From Massalongia carnosa (taxonomy: Eukaryota): a stretch of 64,000 nt of DNA. How positions within the stretch are numbered: position 1 is the stretch's first letter; each line of letters starts with the position of its first letter. The notes beneath the pieces are model-generated. The model searched no databases and was not told the DNA's origin. It worked only from the letters and a program-made list of their open reading frames with translations. The stretch is taken from contig OZ287088.1 in the NCBI GenBank assembly GCA_965645245.1, positions 558,001-622,000 on the forward strand. The letters run 5' to 3'. The position numbers were made by a program, and so were the translations under genes. Positions 26,435 through 63,900 of this stretch are shown here, piece after piece.

Positions 26435-26507
26435 TCTCGAGTAGCTCAGTTGGTAGAGCGGAACACTGAAGTTGTTTAGGTTATAAGTTCAAATCTTATT
26501 TCGAAGC
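26435..26507 (+). tRNA. trnF: tRNA-Phe(GAA)-like, mitochondrial style; probably a NUMT or pseudogene
   Basis: D arm GCTC-AGTTGGTA-GAGC; anticodon arm GAACA-CTGAAGT-TGTTT (GAA at 26468-26470); T arm ATAAG-TTCAAAT-CTTAT; imperfect acceptor stem TCTCGAG/TTCGAAG. Confidence 0.75.
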
Positions 26508-37817: not shown

Positions 37818-39796
37818 GTGTGGGGATAAAATCTCGTTATTCGATATTAACATGCAATATTTGCAAACCGGAACCGAAAAATACAATTCGAATATGCAGA
37901 TCGAAACACAAGTACCGCAACTTTTGATACTCTATAACTTTTACAGTCAATTAAGCCTCTATTTCTCAGTCATTTGAGCTCCTCCAGAACAAAAACGGAC
38001 TCATATTGAGTGTAGGAGAGCTCTAGCAAAGCTCCAGCAGAGATTTTCTGCTGGTCGCACGCGATAGACGTGATAAAGCGCGCTCAAGAAGTTTTAAAAA
38101 ACAACAAATACCAACAAGATCACCAAAAATCGCTCATTTTTCTCACTTTCTTCTGTTCTGTTGTCGCATTCTCCTCAATTATTACTACAAGAATTATCTA
38201 CAAAAAATATCTACTGTCGCGGTACTGTACAACAACTGTCGCGACGACAAACTTTTTTGAAGTTCATTTCTCATTTAAGGTTACGGGAACTTCCGCTAGC
38301 ACAAATTTTCACAGTATATTTCACGTATAATTTCTGCATATACCATTTTAGGCTTTATCGATCTCCATTGAACGGCCGGTCAACAGATCACTGAAAAGAA
38401 GGGGAAAAACGTCTGGAATAGGATTATACCAAAGGTCCTGTTTCAGATTAATCAGAATAGGAAGTCTCTTATTATCTTACCTTGCCTTAGATCTATTTAT
38501 ATCGAAAAAAAAAAAAAACTTTCATTATTTTCAACTATTGTAGTGTCTGGTAAAGGGTTAAATAAGATTTACTGCCTAAGCGAGGAACGGTCTACTTTAA
38601 CCCGATAAGGATTTATTTGACTTGTTATTGTCAATTAAATTGGGATAGGAAAGAAAGAGTTATTTGACCAGTAAATCGGTGTAATTTCTGTTCTGACTAG
38701 TACGTCTGGGGAACGTCAGAATAAACTATTTGGTGGTGATAAAAGGGATATAGAAAAGGCATGTTCAACCAGGTAATCAACCCGGTAACCAACTCTGCAC
38801 TTCCTAGAAATAGGCGATTTTTGGCGAGACCAACCCTCCAAGGCCCCCCACCGAGAAATTATCGGCCCCCCCGAGTACTCCCCCGGGTCCGCCCCGAAAC
38901 GACTCTCCCGCGCCATCTTCAGTAGCCATGATAGGGAGCTCACCCCCATCCGACGAGTTTATAGAAGCTATGGACCAGTCAGGGAAATTTTCGTCCGCCC
39001 CCTCCACACCGACCCCTAAAGCGAAGGCGTTCATTGCTCCATCTGGTGAATTTACTACTAATTTATCTATGCCGTCATTAAATTCGAATATTGGATTAAG
39101 CCCGCCAATCAAACGCAATAAAAGAAGAACATTTGACGAGTATTCGATTCAAAGTCAAGAAGTCATCAATCGAACGAAATCAATTCAACTATTGAATACA
39201 GCTAAAAACGCACTATTGGAGTCATTCGTATTAGATCAAAATCCCGAAACGGCTATTGTCATTGATAACATCAACTCTCTACTGATAAAGAAAACAATCA
39301 AGCCTAAAGCAACGCTGGAAATGATTGATTGGAAATTGAATAGGGTGCTAGAACAAACTAACAAAATTCCAGAAACAACGGAACAATCGGTGCGACCTAC
39401 GCAAGCAAATTCGAATGGAAATTCGAATTTGAATAAAAACGTCAAACAAGCCATTCGGAGGGGAACCGCCGAGGTCCCGGGGCCGCAGGTCAACGAGTCA
39501 ACTAAAACATGGAGTCAAATGCTCGGAAGAGCAACCTCTAATTCCGAAAATTGGACCACCGTTTCTCGAACGAAAAAATCGAATACTAATTCTAATTCGA
39601 ACAAATTCGATAATACGGAGGATTTTAACGCGATTAAATCAAGACGATTAATTATTACACCGAAAGCTCAAATCGGCGATATCGATTCATTGTTGCTTCG
39701 AAACCAAATCAATTCGCTTTTAAAGACGAGAAATTCACTATCGTTGTCAACACGGTCGAAAAGTCCAAAACGGGACAAAATATCGTTCTGACTACT

Positions 39797-49900: not shown

Positions 49901-52510
49901 GAGAAAATAGTTGCTAATCGACTTGCCTACCTCGGCGAAAATTCGAGCTTGTTAGATACCGAACAAATAGGCGGACGCAAAAATCATTCTGCAATCGATG
50001 AGGTTATGAACGTCGTTCATGATATCGAAATCGCAAACCGAAACAAAAACGTTTTATCATGTCTATTACTCGATGTCAAAGGAGCATTTGACTTTGTTTC
50101 CATTATTCAATTGCTAAATGTCATGAAAAAGCTGCATTTATCTCGCATAGTTATTCAATGGGTCAAGCATTTTATGACAAAACGATCGATCAATTTGATA
50201 TCGATGAACGCAAAAGCAAAACGTACTATATCGAATCTGGAATTCCACAAGGTTCACCCATCTCGCCAATTCTATTTCTGATTTATATTCGTTACTTATT
50301 CCCGAAAATACGAATGAAATTCAATGCTCATTCACCTATCTTTATAGACGATGTTGCAATATATGTCGAAAATAAAACTGCCAAACAGAATTGCAAAGAA
50401 ATCGAAATTATCTTCAAAACAGCTTTTTATTGGGCCGCAACGAATAATGTCAAATTTGATAACGACAAATCTGAGTTGATTCACTTCGAAAAGTCAAGAA
50501 ATGCATCAAAACACAAAGTGCAATTACCAAACGGGACAATACTAGAAACGAAAAAATCTGTCAAATGGTTATGAGTCTGGTTAGACCGAAAACTAAATTA
50601 CAAAAAACACGTCGAAACGCGAATTGCTTCTGCAAATCGAATGTTTTTCGCAACTCAAAATTTGATGAAGTCTGAATGGGGACTAATGCCAACTGCATGC
50701 AGACAGCTCTATTTGTCATGCATTATTCCTATTTCGGACTATGGCTCAGAAATCAGGTATAATGGTAAAAAGAAAAATGAAAAGCTATTTCAGAATCTGC
50801 AAAATCGAATGATTCGAAAGATTTTAGGCACATTCAAAACCAAGCTTGTTCAGGTGATGGAAATTGAATCGCATATTTACAAGCCAAGCTACGATTGTTG
50901 ATTTAAAAATCAAAAATACGCAATTCGATTACTGAAGATTGCCGAAAATAATCCTATTTGTCAAGGAATTCCCAGTACCTATTCGGTAAAATTCAAAAAC
51001 ATCGGTTTTGACACTAGTTTAAAGAACAACAGATATGTTGAATTGAACGAAGACCAGAAAAATCGAATAAACCTCATCATAGTCAGTTTATCCATATTCT
51101 TTATTCCGTTTCGGATATAGTTCACAAAACTGATGAATTCGAATCAGTATATAATTTCATCCAACCATGGATGCCCTCTTGTAAAATCAAGTTCCAAATC
51201 GAAAGATCAAAAGAAACAGCGAAGTCAAGTTATTATTCGACTTTATAAAAAATTCAATCAATTAACGCAGATAAATCGCGAGTGTTACTCTATACTGATG
51301 GATCAAGAACCGAGTATTCAACTTCCGCTGTCACATTTGCACCAATTATGGGAAATTGGAACAATTTCACTGATAACTTCAATCGTTTTATCGAAAAATA
51401 TTGTCTCCTCAAACATCATACGATCTCGAAAAGCTGGAAATTAAAAAAACAGTCAAGCGTTAAAAAGGCTGAACTGTATGCGATACTACGAGCATTAAAA
51501 TGGCCATATAAATTGACAATTGCGAATATTCTCTCCAATTTAGAAAAAACGATTTGGATTTTTTCTGATAGCATAAACGCGATAAACGAAACTCAGAACT
51601 TTACAAATCATACTTACGCAAAACAAATTCGAAAATTCTCGAAATGCTTATTCGGAAACAATTATCAGGTGGTTCTACAATGGATTCCTAGTCATTCAAA
51701 AATCGTCGAAAATGAAATTGCAGATAAAGCAGCAAAAGCGGGACATAGTCGAATCCTAGTCGAGTCTTCGATAATAACATTTGATTATATAAGGGTCAAA
51801 TAAATCGAAATATGTTATCCACAAGGGCGAATCAATGGCAACAATGCAAGTCAAAAGGCAAATACTATGAGAAATTCGAATTGCAGCCGGGCAAATCGAG
51901 TTTTTATTATCTGTCGAATAATTGTACAAAATTGATATTTGAGACTATTATGCAAATGAAATTGGGACACGGTTGTTTTCGATCATATCTGCACCGATTG
52001 AAAGATTATAATTCGTCAAAATGCACAGGGCGCTGCAACGAACGTCAAACGCCAGAACACTTATTGATAAATTGCATACATTATTCCAATGAAATCCTAA
52101 ACATGAAACAAAATATCGATACCACAATTACTTTAAAAATATTGTTTAATACTAGGATCGGAAATAATATTTTGATTAATTTTATTGTTGATAACAAAAT
52201 CTCGACTAGAAAATGTATGCTAGGTCAGCTCGATGACGAAAAAATAGAAACAGGAGGTTGGGGAGAGATTGAACAGTAAAATTAGAAATCATTTATGCTG
52301 GAATATTCACTAGCTTTCAAAAACTAATTGAAAAATCGATATTTCGATTACTAAAGATTGTTACTAACACGGAGTAAAAACGGGGCAATATTGACGATAC
52401 ATAGTTGGGTTATAAAGGGTTGATTTAATTGTAAAATAAAAACATATCTTAAAATAGTTTAGTGTCATAACCTTAGGTTGAATACACCCAATGAATAAAT
52501 AAATAAAAAA

Positions 52511-53020
52511 TCACTAGCAACACAGATAAGAACGGAAAAAATCAGACTGGCCAACTTTCTATATCGGCGTAAGGTCCCAGGTATGAACACGGCGGCATGT
52601 CCCTACGGAAGCCTCTTACAAACAGCCAACATGTAATCATGTTCTGCAGACTGCACGAACACAGAACGCACATGCTACGAACGGCAGGCTCGTCAGACTA
52701 CCGCAAGCTAATTACCGAACCCAAAGCTCTCAAAGTAGTAACCGCGTGGCTAATGCGCACATGTATTTTAACACAGTATTTCATTGCCACGCAACTGCTT
52801 GAACAGCAGCCGTGCAGTCTCTCTTCAGTTTGAAAAACAGATATAGCAGATTTTCGAGATTCAGAAATCAATTCGCGGGAGAGGCGAACCCCCGATGAAG
52901 CGGATACGCAGGAATAGTTTTTCACCTTTAGGTTTTCTACTTATTACATAGCTTATATAGCATCCCCTGCATGGGCCGGCCTCCGGCGGGTGACACAACT
53001 GCGTAAGAATAATCAAATCA
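52511..53020 (+). mobile_element. 3' end of a LINE-B-related element
   Basis: SLATQIRTEKIRLANFLYRRKVPG, VTAWLMRT; 3'UTR gcatgggccggcctccggcggg; CAAAT-type tail. Confidence 0.82.
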
Positions 53021-53024
53021 AACC

Positions 53025-53392
53025 AACGCGATAAACGAAATTCATAACTTGACAAATCATATTTTCGCAAGACAAATTCGAAAGCTCGCAAAACGCATTT
53101 TTGAAAGCAATTATCAGGTGATTTTGCAATGGGTTCCGAGTAATTCAAATATAAACAAAATAGCAAACACGGGTCATAATCAAATCCTAGTCGAGTCCTC
53201 GGCGATAACATTTGATTATGTAAAAGATCACATGAATAAAAATATGCTAACCACATGGATGAATCAATGGGAACAATGCAAATCAAAAGGCAAATACTAC
53301 GAGAAATTCGAAATAAAACCTGGCATATCGAGATTTTATTTATTTATTAAACAACTGTTCGAAATTGATATTTGCTACTATTATGCAATTAA
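53025..53392 (+). mobile_element. LINE-A1 RNase H fragment ending abruptly at 53392
   Basis: ORF 53049.. matches A1 copies up to ...tatgcaattaa, then changes to unrelated sequence. Confidence 0.85.
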
Positions 53393-55287
53393 CAAGCATC
53401 TCGAACTTTGTAAAGTGGTACGAGGAATGTCAAATATGCGAGCAGCGCATATCTTGCTTTCAAGTGGATTTTCTATTAGAAACTGCTTAGCATCATTCGC
53501 GTGACAGTATCATTACAATTCATGATTGTTAAATGAACAAGTTACCATCGGTCCTCACCACGGAGACGCCAAAGGCCTCACCGTGGGGCGACCGTCAAAC
53601 ATAGATTTGCTCCTATCTCTTCGCATCAAAACAATGCTAATTTAACGCGTTCACACGCGTCGCAGACGTACGTACGGAAGAGGATACGAAGGCCAACCGC
53701 CGGGGGGTAGAATGCGCGCGTCCCTGCACCATGCTTCTAAGGGTTCAAGTCCCTTCATGCAGTCATCAGCTGGAAGAAGATGTGGACCAAAGGAGCCGCA
53801 TCATCCCCCACCCGGGCACAGTCGACACGCGTTCTAGCTCCTGAGAGTTCAAGTCTCCCCATGCAGTCATCAGCTGGGATCAACAGAACGCGTAAAGGCA
53901 CCGGGGCGAATGCTGTCACCTCAAGAAAACTCCATCTCGGAGCAGAATAACAATATCCCATTTAATAGGCCCGGCCTGTTAAATAAAATCGAGGAAAACA
54001 AAGTCACAAAACACATAGTCATCAATCACACGTTGTACAAAGCACACAGTCACAAAGCACACAGTCACAAACATACAGTCACAAATACACAGTCACAAAA
54101 CACACAGTCACAAAAAGCACAGTCACAAATCAATAACACGTCCCTGTGAAGGGGGTTCTGCGGGGGCTCGTTAAGACAGATCTGCACCCCGTTAATATCG
54201 GAGTACATATTTTTAGAGGTTCAAGTCCTTTCTAGCAGTCATCAGCTGAAAATAATGTATTTTGACACGGGCATGGTGTGGATTTGACACGGGTAGACCT
54301 CGATGGATCACAAAACGAATGAAAAGAGTTCAGCGGAACTTCGTTAATATTGTTCTCGAAGACCTCGTTAATAAGATTTTCATAGATCTCGTTAACAACG
54401 TTCGGTCATACTCTTAAAGGTTCAAGTCCTTTCATGCAGTCATCGGCTGAGAGCTAAAGACGTACTACACGGGTCAGCTATGTCTATCACACGGGTCTCC
54501 TTCGTCTACAACACGGAGCCCTCCGGCTGAAAGAAATAAAAAATATAGACACATAGTGTAGGGTCACACCCTACACGATACAAGGGATTTAGGTTATGAA
54601 AACCATCCGATTGATGGCTACCGTGAGCAACACGGCCCGAACCGGAGTCGTACCGGGGATGGTGGAGGCAACCTAGTCATCAAATAGGACACCCTTGGGA
54701 CAAGAAGAGGGCAATATACGAGGAACCCGTTAATTGATAACAGTCTAGGCCCTGAGCTAATAGACGAATTTCAAACGAGCACCCCTCCGAGTTGTCCTCG
54801 ACTTGTTTTGGTTAGTAGGGACGGAAAATCGATACTATACTGCCTGGTCAGGAGCATAGCTGTCGAAATCCCTGCGAGACATGGTCGGTTCATAAACGGG
54901 AGACCTTTATGAATAACGCGAAGTGGGCGTAAAAAACCCGTGAGGCGTGGTATGCAATGGCGGCCACCGTACGGAGACCGTCTGCATAGCCCGAGAGGAC
55001 AGTATGCGCATGTCGGTGTATATAGAGCAGGGAATGTCTATCTCGCTCGTAACGAGACCCCGTCGGTTCGCCGGCGCATAGGCTACGGCTAGACTCGCCC
55101 TTGATATATGCTTAAGGAGTAAACTGGGTTTGACCTGGGCGAAAGGGACGTCGTTCACCCCAATCGTAGAATTCATCAATAGTCTTGGGCCGTAAAACGC
55201 ACCAGTGAGATGAACGAAAACTGGGATAGAGACTTCACGAAGGAGATGTCAACTCTATTTTATCATTCTTAGCCCCGTCTTGAACCT
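53393..55287 (+). ncRNA. Large structured RNA region, probably the 5' leader of the LINE-A2 copy downstream
   Basis: Four covarying T-loop junction modules, long G-U-rich rods, many GNRA/UNCG hairpins and no credible ORF; directly abuts ORF1. Confidence 0.6.
54000..54130 (+). repeat. ~12-13-bp tandem repeat (CACAGTCACAAA)n, about 8 units
   Basis: Directly visible. Confidence 0.9.
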
Positions 55288-56718
55288 ATGGATCAAACTC
55301 GCGAATATGCATCAGCCCCGTCAACACCGACACCAAAGGCAACGAAATTCCTATCGGGTCCATTTTCCACTATCTTGCCGATGCCTTCATTGAACTTAAA
55401 CATTGGATTAAGCCCACCAATCAAACGAAATAAAAGACGCACATTTGACGAACATTCGAGAGATAGCCAAGAAGCGATCAATCGGGCAAATTCAATTGAG
55501 CTTCTAAAGTCGGCCAAAAAAGCATTATTGCAATCATTTGTACTGGACCAAAATCCACAAACGGCTATCGTAATTGACAACGTTAATTCGTTGATTTCGA
55601 AAAAATCAATCAATTTACAAACATCCTTAGATATGATTAACTATAAAATGGGCATAGTACTTGATCAAACTAGTCATCTTTCCTCAAAAACGTCACAACA
55701 ACAAACGACTCCACTACAGAATGGTCCAAAAATCCAAAAACCTGTTGTTAAATTGAACGAAAATTCAATTATCGAAAATCAGACCATTCGCAAAGGAGCC
55801 ACCGGGGTCTCTGGTAACAATGTTAGCACAACCGGTACATGGAGTTAAATGCTTGGAAAAGCAACCGAAAACTCCGAAAATTGGACTACTATTCAAAGGA
55901 AAAGTTCGAATCATAATTCGAACAAAGTCGATCGATTTCATGCAATCAAGGCCAGACGACTCGTGATTTCACCGAAAAATCCTGACGCTCAAATCGACTC
56001 TATGAAGTTGCGTGATGAAATTAACGCGCTATTAAAAAACGCAAATTTAAACATCATCGTCAATACTTTTGAAAAGTCCAAAACCGGTCAGAATATCGTT
56101 CTCACCACTAGCCCTGACAACAATGCCGAAGAATTGTTGAAAAATAAATCTTCATGGGAACAGATTTTCGAATCACAAAGAATTCGAAAAGACGAATCCT
56201 GGTTTAAAGTCATAGCACACGGAGTAAATATCTCGTTATTCGATAATAACATGCAATATTTGCAAACCGAAATCGAAAAATACAATTCGAATATGCAACT
56301 ATGCGATTTACCAAGATGGCTTGCTCGGGATCGTCAAAACAAAGTCACGTCGTCGGTAGTTTTGACTTTCAATAATCAAAATCAAGCGTCAAACGCGTTA
56401 AGAGGCGTGAATATCGCGGGTAGACATTGTGACACGGAAATAATTGCTTCCGTTCGTCCAAACACGCAATGTATTAATTGTCAGAAATTTGGACATAAGC
56501 ATTATCAATGCAAAAGTCCGGCAAAATGCAATATATGCGCACAAAGTCATGAAACGCATAATCATGAATGCACAAGCTGCAAGTGTAAAATCGCATGCGC
56601 ACATGCAATTCTGAAATGCGTCAATTGCAACAAAAATCATCAATCGAACGATATAGGTTGCGAAATGTTTATCTCGCTAAATCCTAGAAAATCGAATGAT
56701 GAATTAATGCTTGGTTAA
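55288..56718 (+). pseudogene. LINE-A2 ORF1 (three Cys/His knuckles) with one in-frame TAA at 55846-55848
   Basis: QCINCQKFGHKHYQC..CNICAQSHETHNHEC..CVNCNKNHQSNDIGC; homologous to ORF 38928. Confidence 0.92.
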
Positions 56719-59700
56719 TGGCGGGACAACATTCGTTGACAAATATCGAAAATACACAAAATGTCAAATTTATTCAACATAATTGTGCAAAGTCAACGAA
56801 TGCAATGATTTCGTGTCTGGAATATGCAGTATTAAATCGTGTTGATATTGTTTTATTTCAGGAACCATGGACGCGAGATCAAAAAACAATTTCCCATCCG
56901 TCATTCACATGTATTATGCCGAAAATAGCGACTTATCGGCCGAGAGTAGCTATATTCGTTACAAAATGCAATCCAAAATTACAATGCACGCCTAGAACGG
57001 ATCTTATAAACGATACTGATCTGCAAATTATCGAAATTACAATTGATGAAGTTCGAAAAGTGCAGATCTTTAACCTTTACAATGAAAAAAGTCTAAACGA
57101 TCGAGAAACATATACAATCGATCGACTTTTAGTTAAATATCAACCTATATCAACTGATCAATTTGTCATATGAGGAGATTTCAATGCACATCATAGCTGG
57201 TGGAATTCGAAGATTCAAAATGCAATTCGATCAGAAAATCTAGTCAAATGGTTAAAATTAAACAAATGTAGTTTGATAAATACGCCTGATCTATATACAT
57301 TTTTTGCTCATTCAGGAAATTCTTCATCTATTATTGATTTAACATTTGCAAATTCTAAAATCGAAAACGCAATTACAAATTGGTCAATCGATGAAAACGC
57401 AGTCACGGGTTCAGATCATGAAGTTATTCGATTTGAACTTATCGCGTCTTTCAAGAACTTGACGTCACACGCAACCGCATTATCGAATAAATACAACTGC
57501 AATAAAGCCGATTGGGATAAATTCGCGAAGTTTCTAGACGAAAATGCAATAAACTACGAGTCCCATATACAAAGTCTATTGAACAGTTATCAATTTGATG
57601 AATCAGCGTTATATTTGCAAAACGTTATCAAAAACGCGGCTGAAATGTTTATTCCGAAGACAAAAATATGCGCAAAATCGAAAAATTGGTGGTCGCAAGA
57701 TTTATCCGGACTTCGAAAAATCATGTGTAGACATCGTCGAGAATGGAAGAATAATCCGTCCTATTTTAGTCATCAAACATTTAGACATAGTCGAATCGAG
57801 TACTTTCATGCAATTCGAAAAGCGAAACAGCAAACTTGGTTGGCTTTCCTCGAAAACGCAGCGAATAAAGACGTATTTACAGCTTATAAATACACTAAAC
57901 CGCGCATGTTCGAAAAAATACCACCTATTCAATATGAAAATAAGTTAAATGTTCAATTCGATCACAAATGCGATGCGTTTGTGTCAGCAATGTACACAAA
58001 AAACCCGTTCACTGATGATAATATTGAAGATTTAACGAATCAAGACAGCGAAAATGACAACAATTGGCCGAATTAAACAGAAAATGAATTGCAAAATGCG
58101 ATTAGTTTGTTTAATCCAAAGAAATCATGTGGGCCTGATGCAATCAATTTCACAATAATTCAAAAATCGTTTCAACCATTGAAAAACGTGTTTTTTACTA
58201 TTTATTCTAAATTTATACAAATCGGTTATCACCCGTTATGTTGGCGAACAGGACTCGGTGCTGTTTTAAAAAAACCTAATAAACCAGACTACTCGCTGCC
58301 AAAATCATATCGAATTATTACCTTACTGAATTGTCTTGGTAAAATTGCGGAGAAAATAGTTGCTAATCGACTAGCCTACCTCGGCGAAAATTCGAGCTTG
58401 TTAGATACCGAACAAATGGGCGGACGGAAAAATCATTCTGCAATCGATGCGGTAATGAACGTCGTTCATGATATCGAAATCGCAAACCGAAACAAAAACG
58501 TTTTATCATGTCTATTACTCGATGTCAAAGGAGCATTTGACTTTGTTTCGATTAATCAATTGATAAATGTCATGAAAAAGCTGCATTTATCTCGCATAGT
58601 TATTCAATGGGTCAAGCATTTTATGACAAAACGATCGATCAATTTGATATTCGATGAACACAAAAGCAAAACGTACTATATCGAATCTGGAATTCCACAA
58701 GGTTCACCAATTTCGCCAATTCTATTTCTGATTTATATTCGTTACTTATTTCCGAAAATACGAATAAAATTCAATGCTCATTCACCTAGCTTTATAGACG
58801 ATGTTGCAATATATGTCGAAAATAAAACTGCCACACAGAATTGCAAAGAAATCGAAATTATCGTCAAAACAGCTTTTGATTGGGCCGCAACGAATAATGT
58901 CAAATTTGATGACGACGATTCTGAGTTGATTCACTTCGAAAAGTCAAGAAATGCATCAAAAGACAAAGTGCAATTACCAAACGGGACAATACTAGAACCG
59001 AAAAATTCTTTCAAATGGTTAGGAGTCTGGTTAGACCGAAAACTAAATTACAAAAAACACGTCGAAACGCGAATTGCTTTTGCAAATCGATCGTTTTTCG
59101 CAATTCAAAATTTGATGAAGTCTGAATGGGGACTAAAGCCAACTGCATGCAGACAGCTCTATTTGTCATGCATTATTCCTATTTCGGACTATGGCTCAGA
59201 AATCTGGTATAACGGTCAAAAGAAATATGAAAAGCTATTTCAGAATCTGCAAAATCGAATGATTCGAAAGATTTTAGGCACATTCAAAACGACGCCTGTT
59301 CAGGCGATGGAAATTGAATCGCATATTTTACCAGCCAAGCTACGATTGTTGATGAAAAATCAAAAATACGCAATTAGATTATTGAAGATTGCCGAAAATA
59401 ATCCTATTTGTCAAAGAATTCCCAGTACCTATACGGTGAAATTTGAAAACATTGGTTTTGACACTAGTTTATGGAACAACAGATATGCTGAATGGAACGA
59501 AGACGAGAAAAAATCGAGTAAACCTCATCCTAGTCAGCTTATCCGTATTCTTCATTCCGTTTCGGATAGTGTTCACAAAACTGATGAATTCGAATCAGTA
59601 AATAATTTCATCAAACCATGGAAGCCGTCTTGTAAAATCAAGTTCCAAATCGAAAGATCAAAAGAAACAGCAAAGTCAAGTTATTATTCGACTTTATCAA

Positions 59701-60731
59701 AAATTCAATCAATAAACGCCGATAAATCGCAAATTTTACTCTATACCGTTGGATCAAAAACCGAGTTTTCAACTTCCGCTGTCACATTTGCACCAATTAC
59801 GCGAAATTGGAACAATTTCACCGATAACTTCAATCGTTTTATCGAAAAAGATTGTCTCCTCAAACATCATACGATTTCGAAAAGCTGGAAATTAAACAAA
59901 CAGTCAAGCGTTAAAAACGCTGAACTGTATGCGATACTACAAGCAATAAAATGGGCATACAAATTGACAATTGCGAATATTCTCTTCAATTTGGAAAAAA
60001 CGATTTGGATTTTTTCCGATAGCATAAACGCGATAAACGAAATTCAGAACTTGACAAATCATACTTACGCAAAACAAATTCGAAAATTCTCGAAATGCTT
60101 ATTCGGAAATAATTATCAGGTGGTTCTACAATGGATTCCTAGTCATTCGAAAATCGTCGAAAATGAAATTGCAGATAAAGCAGCTAAAGCGGGACATAGT
60201 CGAATCCTAGTCGAGTCTTCGATAATAACATTTGATTATGTGAAGGGTCAAATAAATCGAAATATTTTAGCCACATGGGCGAATCAATGGCAACAATGCA
60301 AGTCAAAAGGCAAATACTATGAGAAATTCGAAATGCAGCCGGGCAAATCGAGTTTTTATTATCTGTCGAATAATTGTTCTAAATTAATATTTGCAACTAT
60401 TATGCAAATGAAATTCGGACACGGTTATTTTCGATCATATCTGCACCGATTGAAAGATTATAATTCGTCAAAATGCACAGGGCGCTGCAACGAACGTCAA
60501 ACACCAGAACACTTATTGATGAATTGCATACATTATTCAAATGAAATCCTAAACATGAAACAAAATATCGATACCACAATTACTTTAAAAATGTTGTTTA
60601 ATACTAGGATCGGAAATAATATTTTGATTAAATTTATTGTTGATAACAAAATCGCGACTAGAAAATGGATGCTAGGTCGGCTCGATGACGAAAATATCGA
60701 AACGGGAGGTTGGGGAGAGATCGAACAGTAA
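56718..60731 (+). pseudogene. LINE-A2 ORF2 (APE-RT-RNase H-CCHC), one frame with stops at 57171-57173 and 58074-58076; 3'UTR and poly(A) to ~60969
   Basis: FIQHNC, FQEPW, GDFNAHH, SDHEVI, YRIITLLN, LLDVKGAFD, FIDD; the first RNase H Asp is mutated (YTVGS). Confidence 0.93.
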
Positions 60732-60969
60732 AATTAGAAATGATTTATGCTGGAATATTTACGAGCTTAACAAAAACAAATTTTAAAATCGATATTTCGA
60801 TTACTAAAGGTTGTTACTAACACGGAGTAAAAACGGGGCAATATTGACTATACATAGTTGGGTTATAAAGGGTTGATTTATTTGTAAAATAAAACCATAT
60901 CTTAAAATAGTTTAGTGTCATAACCTTAGGTTGAATACACTTAATGAATAAATAAAAAATAAAAAAAAA

Positions 60970-63900
60970 TTTGCTTCCGTTCGTCCAAACACGCAATGTA
61001 TTAATTGTCAGAAATTTGGACATAAGCATTATCAATGCAAAAGTCCGGCAAAATGCAATATATTCGCACAAAGTCATGAAACGCATAATCATGAATGCAC
61101 AACATGCAAGTCTAAAATCGCATGCGCACATGCAATTCTGAAATGCGTCAATTGCAACAAAAATCATCAATCGAACGATATAGGTTGCGAAATGTTTATC
61201 TCGCTAAATCCTAGAAAATCGAATGATGAATTAATGCTTGGTTAATGGCGGGACAACATTCGTTGACAAATATCGAAAATAAATAAAAATGTCAAATTTA
61301 TTCAACATAATTGTGCAAAGTCAACGAATGCAATGATTTCGTGTCTGGAATATGCAGTATTAAATCGTGTTGATATTGTTTTATTTCAGGAACCATGGAC
61401 GCGAGATCAAAAAACAATTTCCCATCCGTCATTCACATGTATTATGCCGAAAATAGCGACTTATCGGCCGAGAGTAGCTATATTCGTTACAAAATGCAAT
61501 CCAAAATTACAATGCACGCCTAGAACGGATCTTATAAACGATACTGATCTGCAAATTATCGAAATTACAATTGATGAAGTTCGAAAAGTGCAGATCTTTA
61601 ACCTTTACAATGAAAAAAGTCTAAACGATCGAGAAACATATACAATCGATCGACTTTTAGTTAAATATCAACCTATATCAACTGATCAATTTGTCATATG
61701 AGGAGATTTCAATGCACATCATAGCTGGTGGAATTCGAAGATTCAAAATGCAATTCGATCAGAAAATCTAGTCAAATGGTTAAAATTAAACAAATGTAGT
61801 TTGATAAATACGCCTGATCTATATACATTTTTTGCTCATTCAGGAAATTCTTCATCTATTATTGATTTAACATTTGCAAATTCTAAAATCGAAAACGCAA
61901 TTACAAATTGGTCAATCGATGAAAACGCAGTCACGGGTTCAGATCATGAAGTTATTCGATTTGAACTTATCGCGTCTTTCAAGAACTTGACGTCACACGC
62001 AACCGCATTATCGAATAAATACAACTGCAATAAAGCCGATTGGGATAAATTCGCGAAGTTTCTAGACGAAAATGAAGTAAACTACGAGTCCCAAATACAA
62101 AGTCTATTGAACAATTATCAATTTGATGAATCAGCGTTATATTTGCAAAACGTTATCAAAAACGCGGCTGAAATGTTTATTCCGAAGACAAAAATATGCG
62201 CAAAATCGAAAAATTGGGGGTCGCAAGATTTATCCGGACTTCGAAAAATCATGTGTAGACATCGTCGAGAATGGAAGAATAATCCGTCCTATTTTAGTCA
62301 TCAATCATTTAGACATAGTCGAATCGAGTACTTTCATGCAATTCGAAAAGCGAAACAGCAAACTTGGTTGGCTTTCCTCGAAAACGCAGCGAATAAAGAC
62401 GTATTTACAGCTTATAAATACACTAAACCGCGCATGTTCGAAAAAATACCACCTATTCAATATGAAAATAAGTTAAATGTTCAATTCGATCACAAATGCG
62501 ATGCGTTTGTGTCAGCAATGTACACAAAAAACCCGTTCACGGATGATAATATTGAAGATTTAACGAATCAAGACAGCGAAAATGACAACAATGGCCGAAT
62601 TTAACCGAAAATGAATAGCAAAATGCGATTAGTTTGTTTAATCCATAGAAATCATGTGGACCTGATGCAATCAATTTCACAATAATTCAAAAATCGTTTC
62701 AACCATTGAAAAACGTGTTTTTTACTATTTATTCTAAGTTTATACACATCGGTTTTCACCCGTTATGTTGGCGAACAGGACTCGGTGCTGTTTTAAAAAA
62801 ACCTAATAAACCAGACTACTCGCTGCCAAAATCATATCGAATTAGTACATTACTGAATTTTCTTGGTAAAATTGCGGAGAAAATAGTTGCTAATCGACTA
62901 GCCTACCTCGGCGAAAATTCGAGCTCGTTAGATACCGAACAAATGGGCGGACGGAAAAATCATTCTGCAATCGATGCGGTAATGAACGTCGTTCATGATA
63001 TCGAAATCGCAAACCGAAACAAAAACGTTTTATCATGTCTATTATTCGATGTCAAAGGAGCATTTGACTTTGTTTCGATTAATCAATTGCTAAATGTCAT
63101 GAAAAAGCTGCATTTATCTCGCATAGTTATTCAATGGGTCAAGCATTTTATGACAAAACGATCGATCAATTTGATATTCGATGAACACAAAAGCAAAACG
63201 TACTATATCGAATCTGGAATTCCACAAGGTTCACCAATTTCGCCAATTCTATTTCTGATTTATATTCGTTACTTATTTCCGAAAATACGAATGAAATTCA
63301 ATGCTCATTCACCTAGCTTTATAGACGATGTTGCAATATATGTCGAAAATAAACTGCCACACAGAATTGCAAAGAAATCGAAATTATCGTCAAAACAGCT
63401 TTTGATTGGGCCGCAACGAATAATGTCAAATTTGATGACGACAAATCTGAGTTGATTCACTTCGAAAAGTCAAGAAATGCATCAAAAGACAAAGTGCAAT
63501 TACCAAACGGGACAATACTAGAACCGAAAAATTCTGTCAAATGGTTAGGAGTCTGGTTAGACCGAAAACTAAATTACAAAAAACACCTCGAAACGCGAAT
63601 TGCTTCTGCAAATCGATCGTTTTTCGCAATTCAAAATTTGATGAAGTCTGAATGGGGACTAAAGCCAACTGCATGCAGACAGCTCTATCTGTCATGTATT
63701 ATTCCTATTTCGGACTATGGCTCAGAAATCTGGTATAACGGTCAAAAGAAATATGAAAAGCTATTTCAGAATCTGCAAAATCGAATTATTCGAAAGATTT
63801 TAGGCACATTCAAAACCACGCCTGTTCAGGCGATGGAAATTGAATTGCATATTTTACCAGCCAAGCTACGATTGTTGATGAAAAATCAAAAATACGCAAT

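What the first reader, a model, noticed from the sequence alone, without database searches (positions are those of the whole stretch)
53734..54453. Four covarying T-loop three-way-junction RNA modules upstream of a LINE ORF1
Seen in the sequence: four copies at 53734-53776, 53839-53879, 54209-54253 and 54411-54453. Each reads P1-[P2: 5-bp stem, loop TTCAAGT]-C(AT/TA)-[GC-AGTCATCR-GC]-T-P1'. Loops and junction are almost invariant while the stems vary and keep pairing. P2 is AAGGG/CCCTT, GAGAG/CTCCC (one mismatch), AGAGG/CCTTT and AAAGG/CCTTT. P1 is CTTCT/GGAAG, TCCT/GGGA, ATTTTT/GAAAAT and CTCTT/GAGAG, always closed by a U-G pair. The G-U pairs favour the plus strand, which is the LINE sense strand. 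Established: a 5-bp stem with a UUCRANY loop is the tRNA T-arm, and GTTCRANNC is also the Pol III B-box. There is no D or anticodon arm here. Inference: this is a multicopy structured RNA motif that I cannot match to a known class. It could be a tRNA-elbow mimic for processing or translation, a nuclease block, a protein-binding module or a new small ribozyme.
Basis: partly seen in the sequence, partly recalled or inferred. Interest (0 to 1): 0.88.

Follow-up and report, generated by a model that had tools for sequence, protein, structure and literature searches.

The report
Conserved T-loop RNA modules heading LINEs
The four repeats are real, covarying RNA hairpin caps with a tRNA-like T-loop, and they belong to a conserved non-coding leader that is found joined at one fixed end to jumping genes (LINEs) in many fungal-type sequences, a structured RNA that matches no catalogued family.

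Summary
Four copies sit at the stated coordinates (0 expected by chance), and only these four are in the window. The same motif occurs in about 48 distinct contexts in metagenome contigs.

Each cap tops a hairpin of about 100-140 nt. It is framed by a second conserved, covarying helix (CUCGU/ACGGG) and an asymmetric internal loop.

The modules are not simply the LINE's own 5'UTR. They lie in a discrete non-coding "head" of about 1.75-1.9 kb (window ~53393/53544-55279). Its 3' domain of about 480 nt is also conserved and covarying. The head ends at a fixed 3' nucleotide (...TCTTRG(C)). After that it is joined to a full-length LINE here, and to LINEs truncated at different points elsewhere. This is the architecture of Magnaporthe MINE (WEIRD RNA + 5'-truncated MGL), which was attributed to reverse-transcriptase template switching.

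There is no Rfam match, no tRNA call and no hammerhead fit, and neither searched 11-nt sequence term turned up a relevant paper among those listed.

The function is inferred. Most likely these are protein-recognition or tRNA-elbow-like scaffolds of a head RNA that rides on LINE machinery. Homology to WEIRD, expression and catalysis remain untested.

The parts
53393..55279 (+). Non-coding 'head' unit that carries the modules. The 5' limit is uncertain (53393 = break in the older LINE fragment; 53544 = start of high multicopy depth). The 3' limit is sharp at about 55279 (...TCATTCTTAGC).
   Evidence: Unique within the window apart from its internal repeats. LINE homology upstream stops at 53388-53392. 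It is multicopy in runs X2, X3, X6 and X7, with contigs ending or diverging at 55274-55279. The fixed 3' end is shared with 13 other copies. No Pfam family was found in 3 of its ORFs (79, 90 and 68 aa).
53734..53776 (+). Module 1 cap: P1 CTTCT/GGAAG, P2 AAGGG-TTCAAGT-CCCTT, CAT, GCAGTCATCAGC, T.
   Evidence: 68.2 bits.
53839..53879 (+). Module 2 cap (one A-C mismatch in P2). It sits on a 9-bp outer stem ACGCGTTCT/AGAACGCGT (about 53827-53892).
   Evidence: 61.7 bits.
53998..54130 (+). 15-nt tandem repeat ACACAGTCACAAAAC (about 9 copies) between modules 2 and 3. It shares CAGTCA with the invariant P3 loop.
54161..54299 (+). Module 3, whole nested hairpin (cap 54209-54253). Two CGTTAA frames lie on the 5' side (54169-54175, 54190-54195) and two ACACGGG frames on the 3' side (54265-54273, 54287-54295).
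   Evidence: The MFE is a single long hairpin, z -2.6, with 3 of 200 shuffles folding as well. CM score 66.8 bits.
54360..54498 (+). Module 4, whole hairpin (cap 54411-54453, loop variant ...CATCGGC). It has two CGTTAA frames on the 5' side and two ACACGGGT frames on the 3' side.
   Evidence: (66.2 bits).
54545..54705 (+). Conserved block A of the head.
   Evidence: 71-78% identical to 19 loci over 43-156-nt matches, in the same order after the modules in most (in L018 one module lies downstream of block A).
54727..54785 (+). Frame-only remnant (CCGTTAAT...ACAGTCTAGG...TTTCAAACGAGCA) without a T-loop hairpin.
   Evidence: Read. No CM hit.
54804..55279 (+). Conserved, structured 3' domain of the head, ending in ...ATCATTCTTAGC.
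   Evidence: 66-77% identical to 19 loci. In an alignment of 11 copies, 58 of 122 RNAalifold pairs carry compensatory changes. G-U 168 against A-C 31, and the + strand folds better than the - strand.
55288..56718 (+). LINE ORF1 (186 + 289 aa in one frame, with one in-frame stop at 55846-55848; Cys/His-rich C-terminal part).
   Evidence: Homology to a second LINE family starts at 55282.
56718..60731 (+). LINE ORF2 in three pieces (56718-57173, 57273-58076, 58089-60731): endonuclease, reverse transcriptase, RNase H.
   Evidence: Pfam Exo_endo_phos_2 (E 9e-5, below the curated cut-off), RVT_1 (E 4e-33), RNase_H (E 1e-7).
60732..60967 (+). LINE 3'UTR and A-rich tail, directly followed by another 5'-truncated copy.

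Best explanation
Shown. The four copies are apical caps of long RNA hairpins read on the + strand. Each cap has a 5-bp P1 closed by a conserved U-G. P1 runs on directly into a 5-bp stem that carries a canonical T-loop (G-UUCAAGU-C). A 3-nt linker follows, then an invariant 12-nt element GCAGUCAUCAGC (at most a 2-bp arm), then one U. Below the cap come a variable helix, an asymmetric conserved internal loop and a conserved helix CUCGU/ACGGG. This frame is often repeated in two nested tiers.

Shown. The modules stand in arrays inside a discrete non-coding head of about 1.75-1.9 kb. The head also has a conserved, covarying 3' domain of about 480 nt and a fixed 3' end. Beyond that end lies LINE sequence in the same orientation. 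In this window it is a full-length LINE. In other copies the LINE starts at different internal points.

Inferred. The head exists as an RNA with a defined 3' end. LINE reverse transcriptase, after copying all or part of a LINE RNA, switches template onto that end, as was proposed for WEIRD-MGL (MINE) chimeras. Fused copies then carry the head as their leader.

Inferred, weakest step. The modules are multivalent recognition scaffolds. The T-loop hairpin would dock with the invariant 12-nt element, like a tRNA elbow. The scaffolds would bind LINE proteins (a Cys/His-rich ORF1 protein, or the RT) or tRNA-elbow or T-arm-binding host factors. This would keep the head RNA stable and close to the LINE particle, making it the preferred partner for the switch.
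For: Motif and chance: 4 hits, 0 in shuffles; 4 hits at 62-68 bits, next 10 bits. The prokaryote and viral collections give 1 unpaired chance hit and 0 hits.

Family: the metagenome scan gave 111 loci and 130 matches. Of 106 distinct contexts, 49 have the 8-nt spacing and at least 4 of 5 P2 pairs (one of these, L046, has 0 P1 pairs and is probably a chance match); the other 57 are chance-like. The CM finds 90 modules in the 37 loci searched, mostly 2-5 per locus.

Structure: RNAalifold on 33 sequences returns P1/P2/P3, and 8 of 12 pairs carry compensatory changes. Paired cells are 79.4% against 67.7% in shuffles. The covariation score is 0.493 against 0.271, with 0 of 500 shuffles reaching it. 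Slid registers give 42-57%. The frame helix covaries: C-G 7, U-A 5, U-G 2, C-A 1, C-C 1.

Strand: G-U 29 against A-C 5 and 68 against 31. For the head 3' domain it is 168 against 31.

Head unit: conserved blocks run in the same order in many loci at 66-78% nucleotide identity, while the adjoining RT is only 25-41% identical in protein. The fixed 3' end is followed by divergence in the window and 13 other copies. The junction partners differ: ORF1 ATG in the window, RT aa about 234 in L063, about 266 in L023, 45 in L035, 338 in L036/L054, 387 in L005, and within ORF1 in L033. LINE protein hits lie downstream on the same strand in 9 of 9 loci that have a hit; two of these overlap one contig. Run contigs end or diverge at 55274-55279.

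Precedent: PMC2104539 (abstract, Results, Methods read) describes MINE as full-length WEIRD, a 1.1-kb non-coding RNA, plus variably 5'-truncated MGL LINE. No solo WEIRD was found, and template switching was proposed.
Against: No RNA data: no listed run is on record as RNA, so transcription, a free head RNA and its 3' end are all unproven. Target-site duplications around head+LINE could not be examined because flanks were at most 1.5 kb. Insertion of LINEs at a preferred site next to the head is therefore not excluded. In this organism the depth of the head and of the ORF1 5' region is similar in X2 and X3, which also fits the head simply being this LINE's leader. P3 has no covariation support, and the proposed T-loop docking rests on analogy only. 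Single modules are not thermodynamically unusual, and several whole modules do not fold as one hairpin by MFE (L055, L016, L001, L106). Sequence homology to WEIRD is not shown: two published WEIRD primers have no match at up to 5 mismatches.
Confidence: 0.55

Rival explanations
1. The head is just the genuine 5'UTR and internal promoter of these LINEs. The modules would act as DNA: repeated promoter monomers as in mouse L1, or arrays of Pol III B-box / TFIIIC sites that insulate the element from silencing. Copies with truncated LINEs would come from internal deletions.
For: GGTTCAAGTCC fits the B-box consensus (recalled). Tandem 183-bp monomers vary in number, 2 or 3. Head and ORF1 depths are similar in X2 and X3. 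The LINE ATG lies only about 8 nt after the head end.
Against: DNA binding does not explain compensatory changes in P1, the outer P2 pairs and the frame helix, nor the G-U over A-C strand bias. Head nucleotide identity (66-78%) far exceeds LINE protein identity (25-41%), so the head did not simply co-diverge with one LINE lineage. At least 7 different junction partners all start at the same head nucleotide. A second LINE family in the window has no module.
Confidence: 0.15
2. The modules, or the head 3' domain, are processing elements. They could be a new self-cleaving ribozyme, or a tRNA-like signal for RNase P/Z, that cuts the leader. This would, for example, create the fixed head 3' end and release LINE mRNA.
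For: The core is a three-way junction with invariant residues. The head 3' end is fixed. In the consensus fold the 3' terminal ...AUCCUUGG pairs with an invariant UGCUUAAGGAGUAAAC. 5' ribozymes are known in other LINEs (recalled: R2, L1Tc HDV-like).
Against: No Rfam ribozyme family reaches E 10 on the head or on 10 loci. The minus strand has CUGAUGA but no GAAA and no helix II in the right place, as read. The module topology is not that of tRNA: the T-arm follows the 5' strand of P1 directly, and ARAGORN is silent. Heads are copied full length through all modules, so the modules are not efficient cleavage sites. The last module is about 830 nt from the head 3' end.
Confidence: 0.12
3. The modules are exonuclease-resistant structures, like flavivirus xrRNAs, that stall 5'-3' decay and protect the downstream domain and LINE RNA.
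For: Tandem three-way junctions with invariant junction residues upstream of the protected part resemble the layout of tandem xrRNAs (recalled).
Against: No match to Rfam xrRNA families. No conserved 5' pseudoknot partner was seen. There is no read evidence for decay intermediates, as no RNA run was listed.
Confidence: 0.06
4. The modules are decaying relics of tRNA-derived SINE heads, or chance repeats, with no present function.
For: T-arm identity. Many copies carry transition-type damage.
Against: Invariant loops alongside covarying stems are seen across 33 divergent copies from many contigs and several organisms. There is no cloverleaf. The nested frame architecture is conserved.
Confidence: 0.04

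Closest known systems
MINE chimeric retroelements of Magnaporthe (WEIRD RNA + MGL LINE), Fudal 2005 (recalled) / Gogvadze 2007 (PMC2104539: abstract, Results, Methods read)
   Same: A non-coding 5' part of about 1-2 kb is present in full up to a fixed 3' end. It is directly fused, in the same orientation, to a LINE truncated at many different 5' points. The 5' part has not been seen on its own. It is explained by RT template switching.
   Different: The sections of the paper read describe no WEIRD structure, and the paper says WEIRD has no relatives in other genomes. Here the head is conserved across many contigs and organisms, is richly covarying, and in this window it precedes a full-length LINE.
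tRNA T-arm / tRNA-like elements (mascRNA, viral TLS, bacterial YrlA)
   Same: A 5-bp stem closed by G-C with the 7-nt loop UUCAAGU equals the T54-Psi55-C56-R57-A58 consensus. It is the expected motif for T-arm enzymes (Pus4/TRUB1, Trm2, Trm6/61; recalled).
   Different: There is no acceptor, D or anticodon arm and no ARAGORN call. The strand continuity is reversed relative to tRNA: P1 5' strand runs straight into the T-stem. The modules are arrayed on long hairpins.
U6 snRNA-L1 chimeric pseudogenes of mammals
   Same: A small structured nuclear RNA is fused 5' to variably truncated LINE copies by template switching (as cited in PMC2104539).
   Different: U6 has independent genes and a known function. 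The head here is 10-20 times longer, and no solo head copy was seen in the flanks examined.
Hammerhead and other small self-cleaving ribozymes in retroelements (PLE hammerheads, R2/L1Tc HDV-like)
   Same: A small junction with invariant nucleotides, multicopy, at the 5' side of a retroelement. The minus strand reads CUGAUGA.
   Different: There are no GAAA and no helix II, and the folding strand is the + strand. No Rfam hit.
Mouse L1 5'UTR monomers
   Same: Tandem units of about 200 bp, variable in number, at the 5' end of a LINE.
   Different: Those act as DNA promoters and are not known for covarying RNA structure (recalled). Here the stems covary.

Membership tests
tRNA / tRNA-like structure | T-arm: 5-bp stem, G53-C61 closing pair, loop UUCRANN | tested here: met
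   G-TTCAAGT-C is invariant in all 33 aligned copies, but the pattern used to select them fixed it. P2 is 96.4% paired.
tRNA / tRNA-like structure | Cloverleaf with acceptor, D and anticodon arms, detectable by a tRNA finder | tested here: not met
   ARAGORN finds only tRNA-Phe at 26435-26507 and nothing at the modules. The arm order is P1-5' / T-arm / linker / 12-nt element / P1-3'.
Hammerhead ribozyme | CUGAUGA + helix II + GAAA + helix III + UH around three helices | tested here: not met
   Only CUGAUGA is present, on the minus strand. No conserved GAAA or helix II was seen by reading. No Rfam hammerhead hit at E up to 10.
Any Rfam 15 family (HDV, twister, pistol, hatchet, xrRNA, SRP, snRNA and others) | Covariance-model match | tested here: not met
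   Window 50000-60000, the head alone, and 10 loci were scanned. No hit lies on the modules. The best hit in the head is a 26-bit sub-threshold match to a Streptococcus sRNA.
MINE/WEIRD-type chimeric retroelement | Non-coding 5' part present up to one fixed 3' end | tested here: met
   ...TCTTRG(C) is followed by divergence in the window and 13 other copies. No Pfam family in the three head ORFs tested.
MINE/WEIRD-type chimeric retroelement | 3' part is a LINE truncated at variable 5' points, in the same orientation | tested here: met
   At least 7 different junction partners. 9 of 9 loci with LINE protein hits have them downstream on the same strand.
MINE/WEIRD-type chimeric retroelement | The whole chimera is flanked by target-site duplications | not testable with these tools
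   Locus flanks were at most 1.5 kb. In the window the LINE 3' end abuts another LINE copy. Records behind the loci are not held.
MINE/WEIRD-type chimeric retroelement | Sequence homology to Magnaporthe WEIRD | tested here: inconclusive
   Only two 20-nt primers were available (PMC3978060, passages read). No match at up to 5 mismatches.
Pol III B-box / TFIIIC site | GGTTCRANTCC consensus, with TFIIIC occupancy | tested here: inconclusive
   The consensus is met in copies 1, 3 and 4 and is two letters off in copy 2. Occupancy is not testable. Covariation outside the box is not explained by it.

The most novel reading that the evidence does not exclude
The head is a previously unrecognised large functional RNA of fungi and an obligate 5' partner or parasite of LINEs. 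It has a conserved, multi-helix 3' domain of about 480 nt that defines, or even cuts, its own fixed 3' end. It also has an array of tRNA-elbow-mimicking T-loop modules that recruit LINE or tRNA-binding proteins. LINE reverse transcriptase would therefore re-attach the head to each new cDNA by template switching. On this reading WEIRD of the rice blast fungus would be one diverged member, and its long-unknown nature would be explained.
Probability: 0.25. Interest if true: 0.9.

Novelty: new variant of a known kind. Interest (0 to 1): 0.74.

Why it matters
The architecture 'non-coding RNA fused to truncated LINEs' has been known since 2005-2007, in one fungus. There the RNA (WEIRD) stayed without structure, relatives or function. 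The 5' RNA here is conserved across many contigs and several organisms. It is far better conserved than the LINEs it is attached to, and it is full of compensatory base-pair changes. It also contains a compact recurring module with a perfect T-loop that no RNA family catalogue holds. This gives a concrete, testable handle on several open questions. One is how LINE reverse transcriptases choose template-switch partners. Another is how LINEs acquire and exchange leaders. A third is whether tRNA-elbow mimicry is used by retroelements. If the head or its modules prove catalytic or protein-recruiting, it would be a new class of eukaryotic structured RNA.

Tried and rejected
1. Hammerhead or C/D-box reading of the minus-strand CUGAUGA. 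Rejected: no GAAA, no helix II, no box D next to a terminal stem, and the folding strand is +.
2. Single-sequence thermodynamics. Caps are not more stable than shuffles. Whole modules are mixed: z is -2.6 and -2.5 for window module 3 and L100, and about 0 for others.
3. Own-genome search: no genome is held for this window. The records behind the loci are not held either, so full chimeras and target-site duplications could not be read.
4. Expression: no RNA holder was listed among 14 runs. All laid runs were contigs, so they give no RNA ends.
5. Earlier scan notes: nothing by place, by sequence (two tries) or by words.
6. Literature by sequence string: CAGTCATCAGC occurs in 60 papers (10 listed, none relevant by title or abstract). 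CAGUCAUCAGC occurs in 3, all unrelated. A keyword search for fungal chimeric retroelements returned only the 2007 MINE paper as relevant.
7. WEIRD homology through primers: no match. The supplements of PMC2104539 are .doc files and could not be read; they hold the chimera sequences and primers that could have settled this.
8. Telomerase RNA, SRP Alu domain and H/ACA pocket resemblances were considered from memory only. None has Rfam support, and none explains arrays fused to LINEs.
9. An HDV-like descriptor search at the LINE 5' end was considered but not run, because a single sequence would give weak evidence.
Full report
**Observation.** The sequence at 53734-54453 holds the four copies exactly as described. 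A 30-nt degenerate pattern hits 53743, 53847, 54219 and 54420 on the + strand with no mismatch. It gave no match in 100 dinucleotide-preserving shuffles. Folding each copy alone is not informative. MFE z-scores are -0.26 to -0.90 on + and +0.49 to -1.19 on -.

**Setting in the window.** The window is a low-GC eukaryotic stretch. It is filled with + strand copies of one LINE family, most of them 5'-truncated and set tail to head.
- The only copy that reaches ORF1 runs from about 55282 to 60967.
- ORF1 is 55288-56718, with one in-frame stop.
- ORF2 is 56718-60731 and carries endonuclease, RVT_1 and RNase_H.
- The 1.9 kb before it is unique within the window apart from the four modules.
- A second, 66-72% related LINE ORF1 at 38964-39796 has no module upstream.

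**Is it a family?** One scan of metagenome contigs with TTCAAGT-N7-9-GCAGTCATCNGC returned 111 loci and 130 matches.
- Of 106 distinct contexts, 49 have the 8-nt spacing and at least 4 of 5 P2 pairs. One of these, L046, has 0 P1 pairs and is probably a chance match.
- The other 57 look like chance hits without pairing.
- As controls, a 21-base version of the pattern has 0 hits in the viral collection.
- It has 1 hit in 596 Gb of prokaryotic genomes. That hit is unpaired and lies in a GC-rich stretch that looks coding.

**Structure of the cap.** I aligned 33 non-redundant copies (4 from the window, 29 from loci).
Compensatory changes occur in 8 of 12 pairs.
- On a gapless 73-column alignment, 79.4% of cells pair against 67.7% in shuffles. 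The covariation score is 0.493 against 0.271, with 0 of 500 shuffles as high. Sliding the 3' partners by 1-3 columns drops pairing to 42-57%.
- P2 is 96.4% paired.
- The junction pair is U-G in 29 of 33 copies, U-A in 3 and C-G in 1.
- G-U outnumbers A-C by 29 to 5 in P1 and P2. The ratio is 68 to 31 in the wider model-derived set, which includes many damaged copies. The + strand, which is the LINE sense strand, is therefore the one under selection to pair.

**Bias from the search pattern.** The loops are invariant in the first set by construction, because the pattern selected them. A covariance model removes that bias.
- It finds only the four copies in the window.
- It finds 90 modules in the 37 family loci searched.
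- The 36 distinct variants that miss the exact pattern mostly differ by transitions. Two recurrent forms also appear, ACAGTCATCGGCT and GCAGTCACCGGCT.
- P3 therefore has no covariation support. Its outer pair is A-C in 6 of 78 distinct rows.

**The module is larger than 43 nt.**
- The flanks carry conserved CGTTAA(T/G) on the 5' side and ACAC(G/A)GG(C/T)A on the 3' side. These are often two of each in nested order, as in window modules 3 and 4.
- They form a helix, CUCGU/ACGGG. Its middle pair covaries: C-G 7, U-A 5, U-G 2, C-A 1, C-C 1.
- Between this frame and P1 lie an asymmetric conserved internal loop and a variable, covarying helix.
- Window module 3 and L100 fold by MFE into one long nested hairpin (z -2.6 and -2.5). 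Other examples do not.

**The modules belong to a discrete head.**
- After the modules, two further blocks of the window (54545-54705 and 54804-55279) recur in many loci, mostly downstream of the modules and in the same order, at 66-78% nucleotide identity.
- The 3' block is a multi-helix domain. In 11 diverse copies RNAalifold gives 122 pairs, 58 with compensatory changes. G-U is 168 against A-C 31, and the consensus energy is better on + than on -.
- All copies share sequence up to ...TCTTRG(C) and then diverge.
- What follows is LINE sequence in the same orientation, starting at different points. These are the ORF1 ATG in the window, RT residue about 234 (the IDDV motif) in L063, about 266 in L023, 45 in L035, 338 in L036/L054, 387 in L005, and within ORF1 in L033.
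- L055, L071 and L002 share one further partner with no protein match in the 620 nt available.
- L025 is a different case. It keeps only one module, followed 155 nt later by an ORF that begins in the endonuclease-RT linker.
- LINE protein identity to the window's ORF2 is only 25-41% in these loci. The head is therefore far better conserved than the LINEs it is joined to.
- In the 183-bp-array type, the head is 1.78 kb relative to L055 and extends up to about 190 nt further 5' in other copies. The 5' ends are ragged.
- Contigs of four public runs show that 53544-55279 is multicopy. Contigs end or diverge at 55274-55279 (X3 record 13, X7 record 25). One of these runs is labelled lichen metagenome and the others are coded.

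**Comparison with what is known.**
- No Rfam 15 family matches the modules, the head or 10 loci at E up to 10.
- ARAGORN calls no tRNA there.
- The T-arm identity is exact, but the arm order is not that of tRNA.
- The minus strand contains CUGAUGA, yet nothing else of a hammerhead.
- The closest known system is architectural: MINE of Magnaporthe. In MINE a full-length 1.1-kb non-coding RNA (WEIRD) is fused to MGL LINE copies truncated at 28 different sites. No solo WEIRD is known, and the fusion was ascribed to RT template switching (PMC2104539: abstract, Results and Methods read).
- I could not test homology. The WEIRD sequence sits in unreadable .doc supplements, and two published primers do not match.
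- Literature searches by sequence string and by keywords found no description of this motif.

**Mechanism.**
- Shown: a + strand RNA fold with conserved loops; arrays of modules; a discrete conserved head with a fixed 3' end; variable LINE partners.
- Inferred from the MINE precedent: the head exists as an RNA with that 3' end and is joined to LINE cDNA by template switching.
- Inferred from form only: the T-loop hairpin docks with the invariant 12-nt element to make an elbow-like knob on a long helix. The array then serves as a multivalent binding platform for LINE proteins or for T-arm or elbow-binding host factors. This would keep the head RNA with the LINE particle.
- The DNA-level reading (promoter monomers or TFIIIC boxes) may coexist, but it cannot explain the covariation.
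- Ribozyme, RNase P/Z and exonuclease-block readings remain open. They have no positive evidence.

**Limits.**
- No RNA data were available.
- Target-site duplications could not be examined.
- The family alignment was seeded with an exact pattern.
- Related copies are not independent events, so the shuffle statistics overstate significance.
- The organism's identity is hidden.

Noticed in passing
window 53998-54130: A 15-nt tandem repeat, ACACAGTCACAAAAC (about 9 copies), lies inside the head between modules 2 and 3. Its CAGTCA core is the same hexamer as in the invariant element GCAGTCATCAGC, so it may offer extra sites for the same binding factor.
   Followed up: partly
window 54804-55279 (and homologous parts of L016, L001, L020, L018, L040, L058, L002, L023, L063, L057): The head's 3' domain is a conserved, multi-helix RNA of about 480 nt, with 58 of 122 predicted pairs carrying compensatory changes. 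Its last bases, ...AUCCUUGG, pair in the consensus fold with an invariant UGCUUAAGGAGUAAAC. It matches no Rfam family.
   Followed up: partly
window 54727-54785: A frame-only remnant of a module (CCGTTAAT ... ACAGTCTAGG ... TTTCAAACGAGCA) that lacks the T-loop hairpin.
   Followed up: no
window 52480-52515 and 60940-60970: LINE copies end in an A-rich (AATA)n-like tail and are directly followed by other 5'-truncated copies. Run X2 shows further tail-to-head joints (52494>56230, 52509>55428, 52510>55987). This suggests insertion into the tails of earlier copies.
   Followed up: partly
window 52511-53024: A stretch of about 0.5 kb, GC-richer, lies between a LINE 3' end and an older LINE fragment. 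It is multicopy in runs X2, X3 and X6 at lower depth than the LINE. Its nature is unknown.
   Followed up: no
window 26435-26507: tRNA-Phe(GAA) gene, the only tRNA call in the window.
   Followed up: no
L005, L033, L036, L055, L058, L089, L090, L106: In one head type the module and its two frames form a 183-bp tandem monomer, present in 2 or 3 copies. This recalls the variable monomer number of mouse L1 leaders.
   Followed up: partly
window 38964-39796: A second LINE family (66-72% identical in ORF1) has a GC-rich, C-tract-rich upstream region and no T-loop module.
   Followed up: partly
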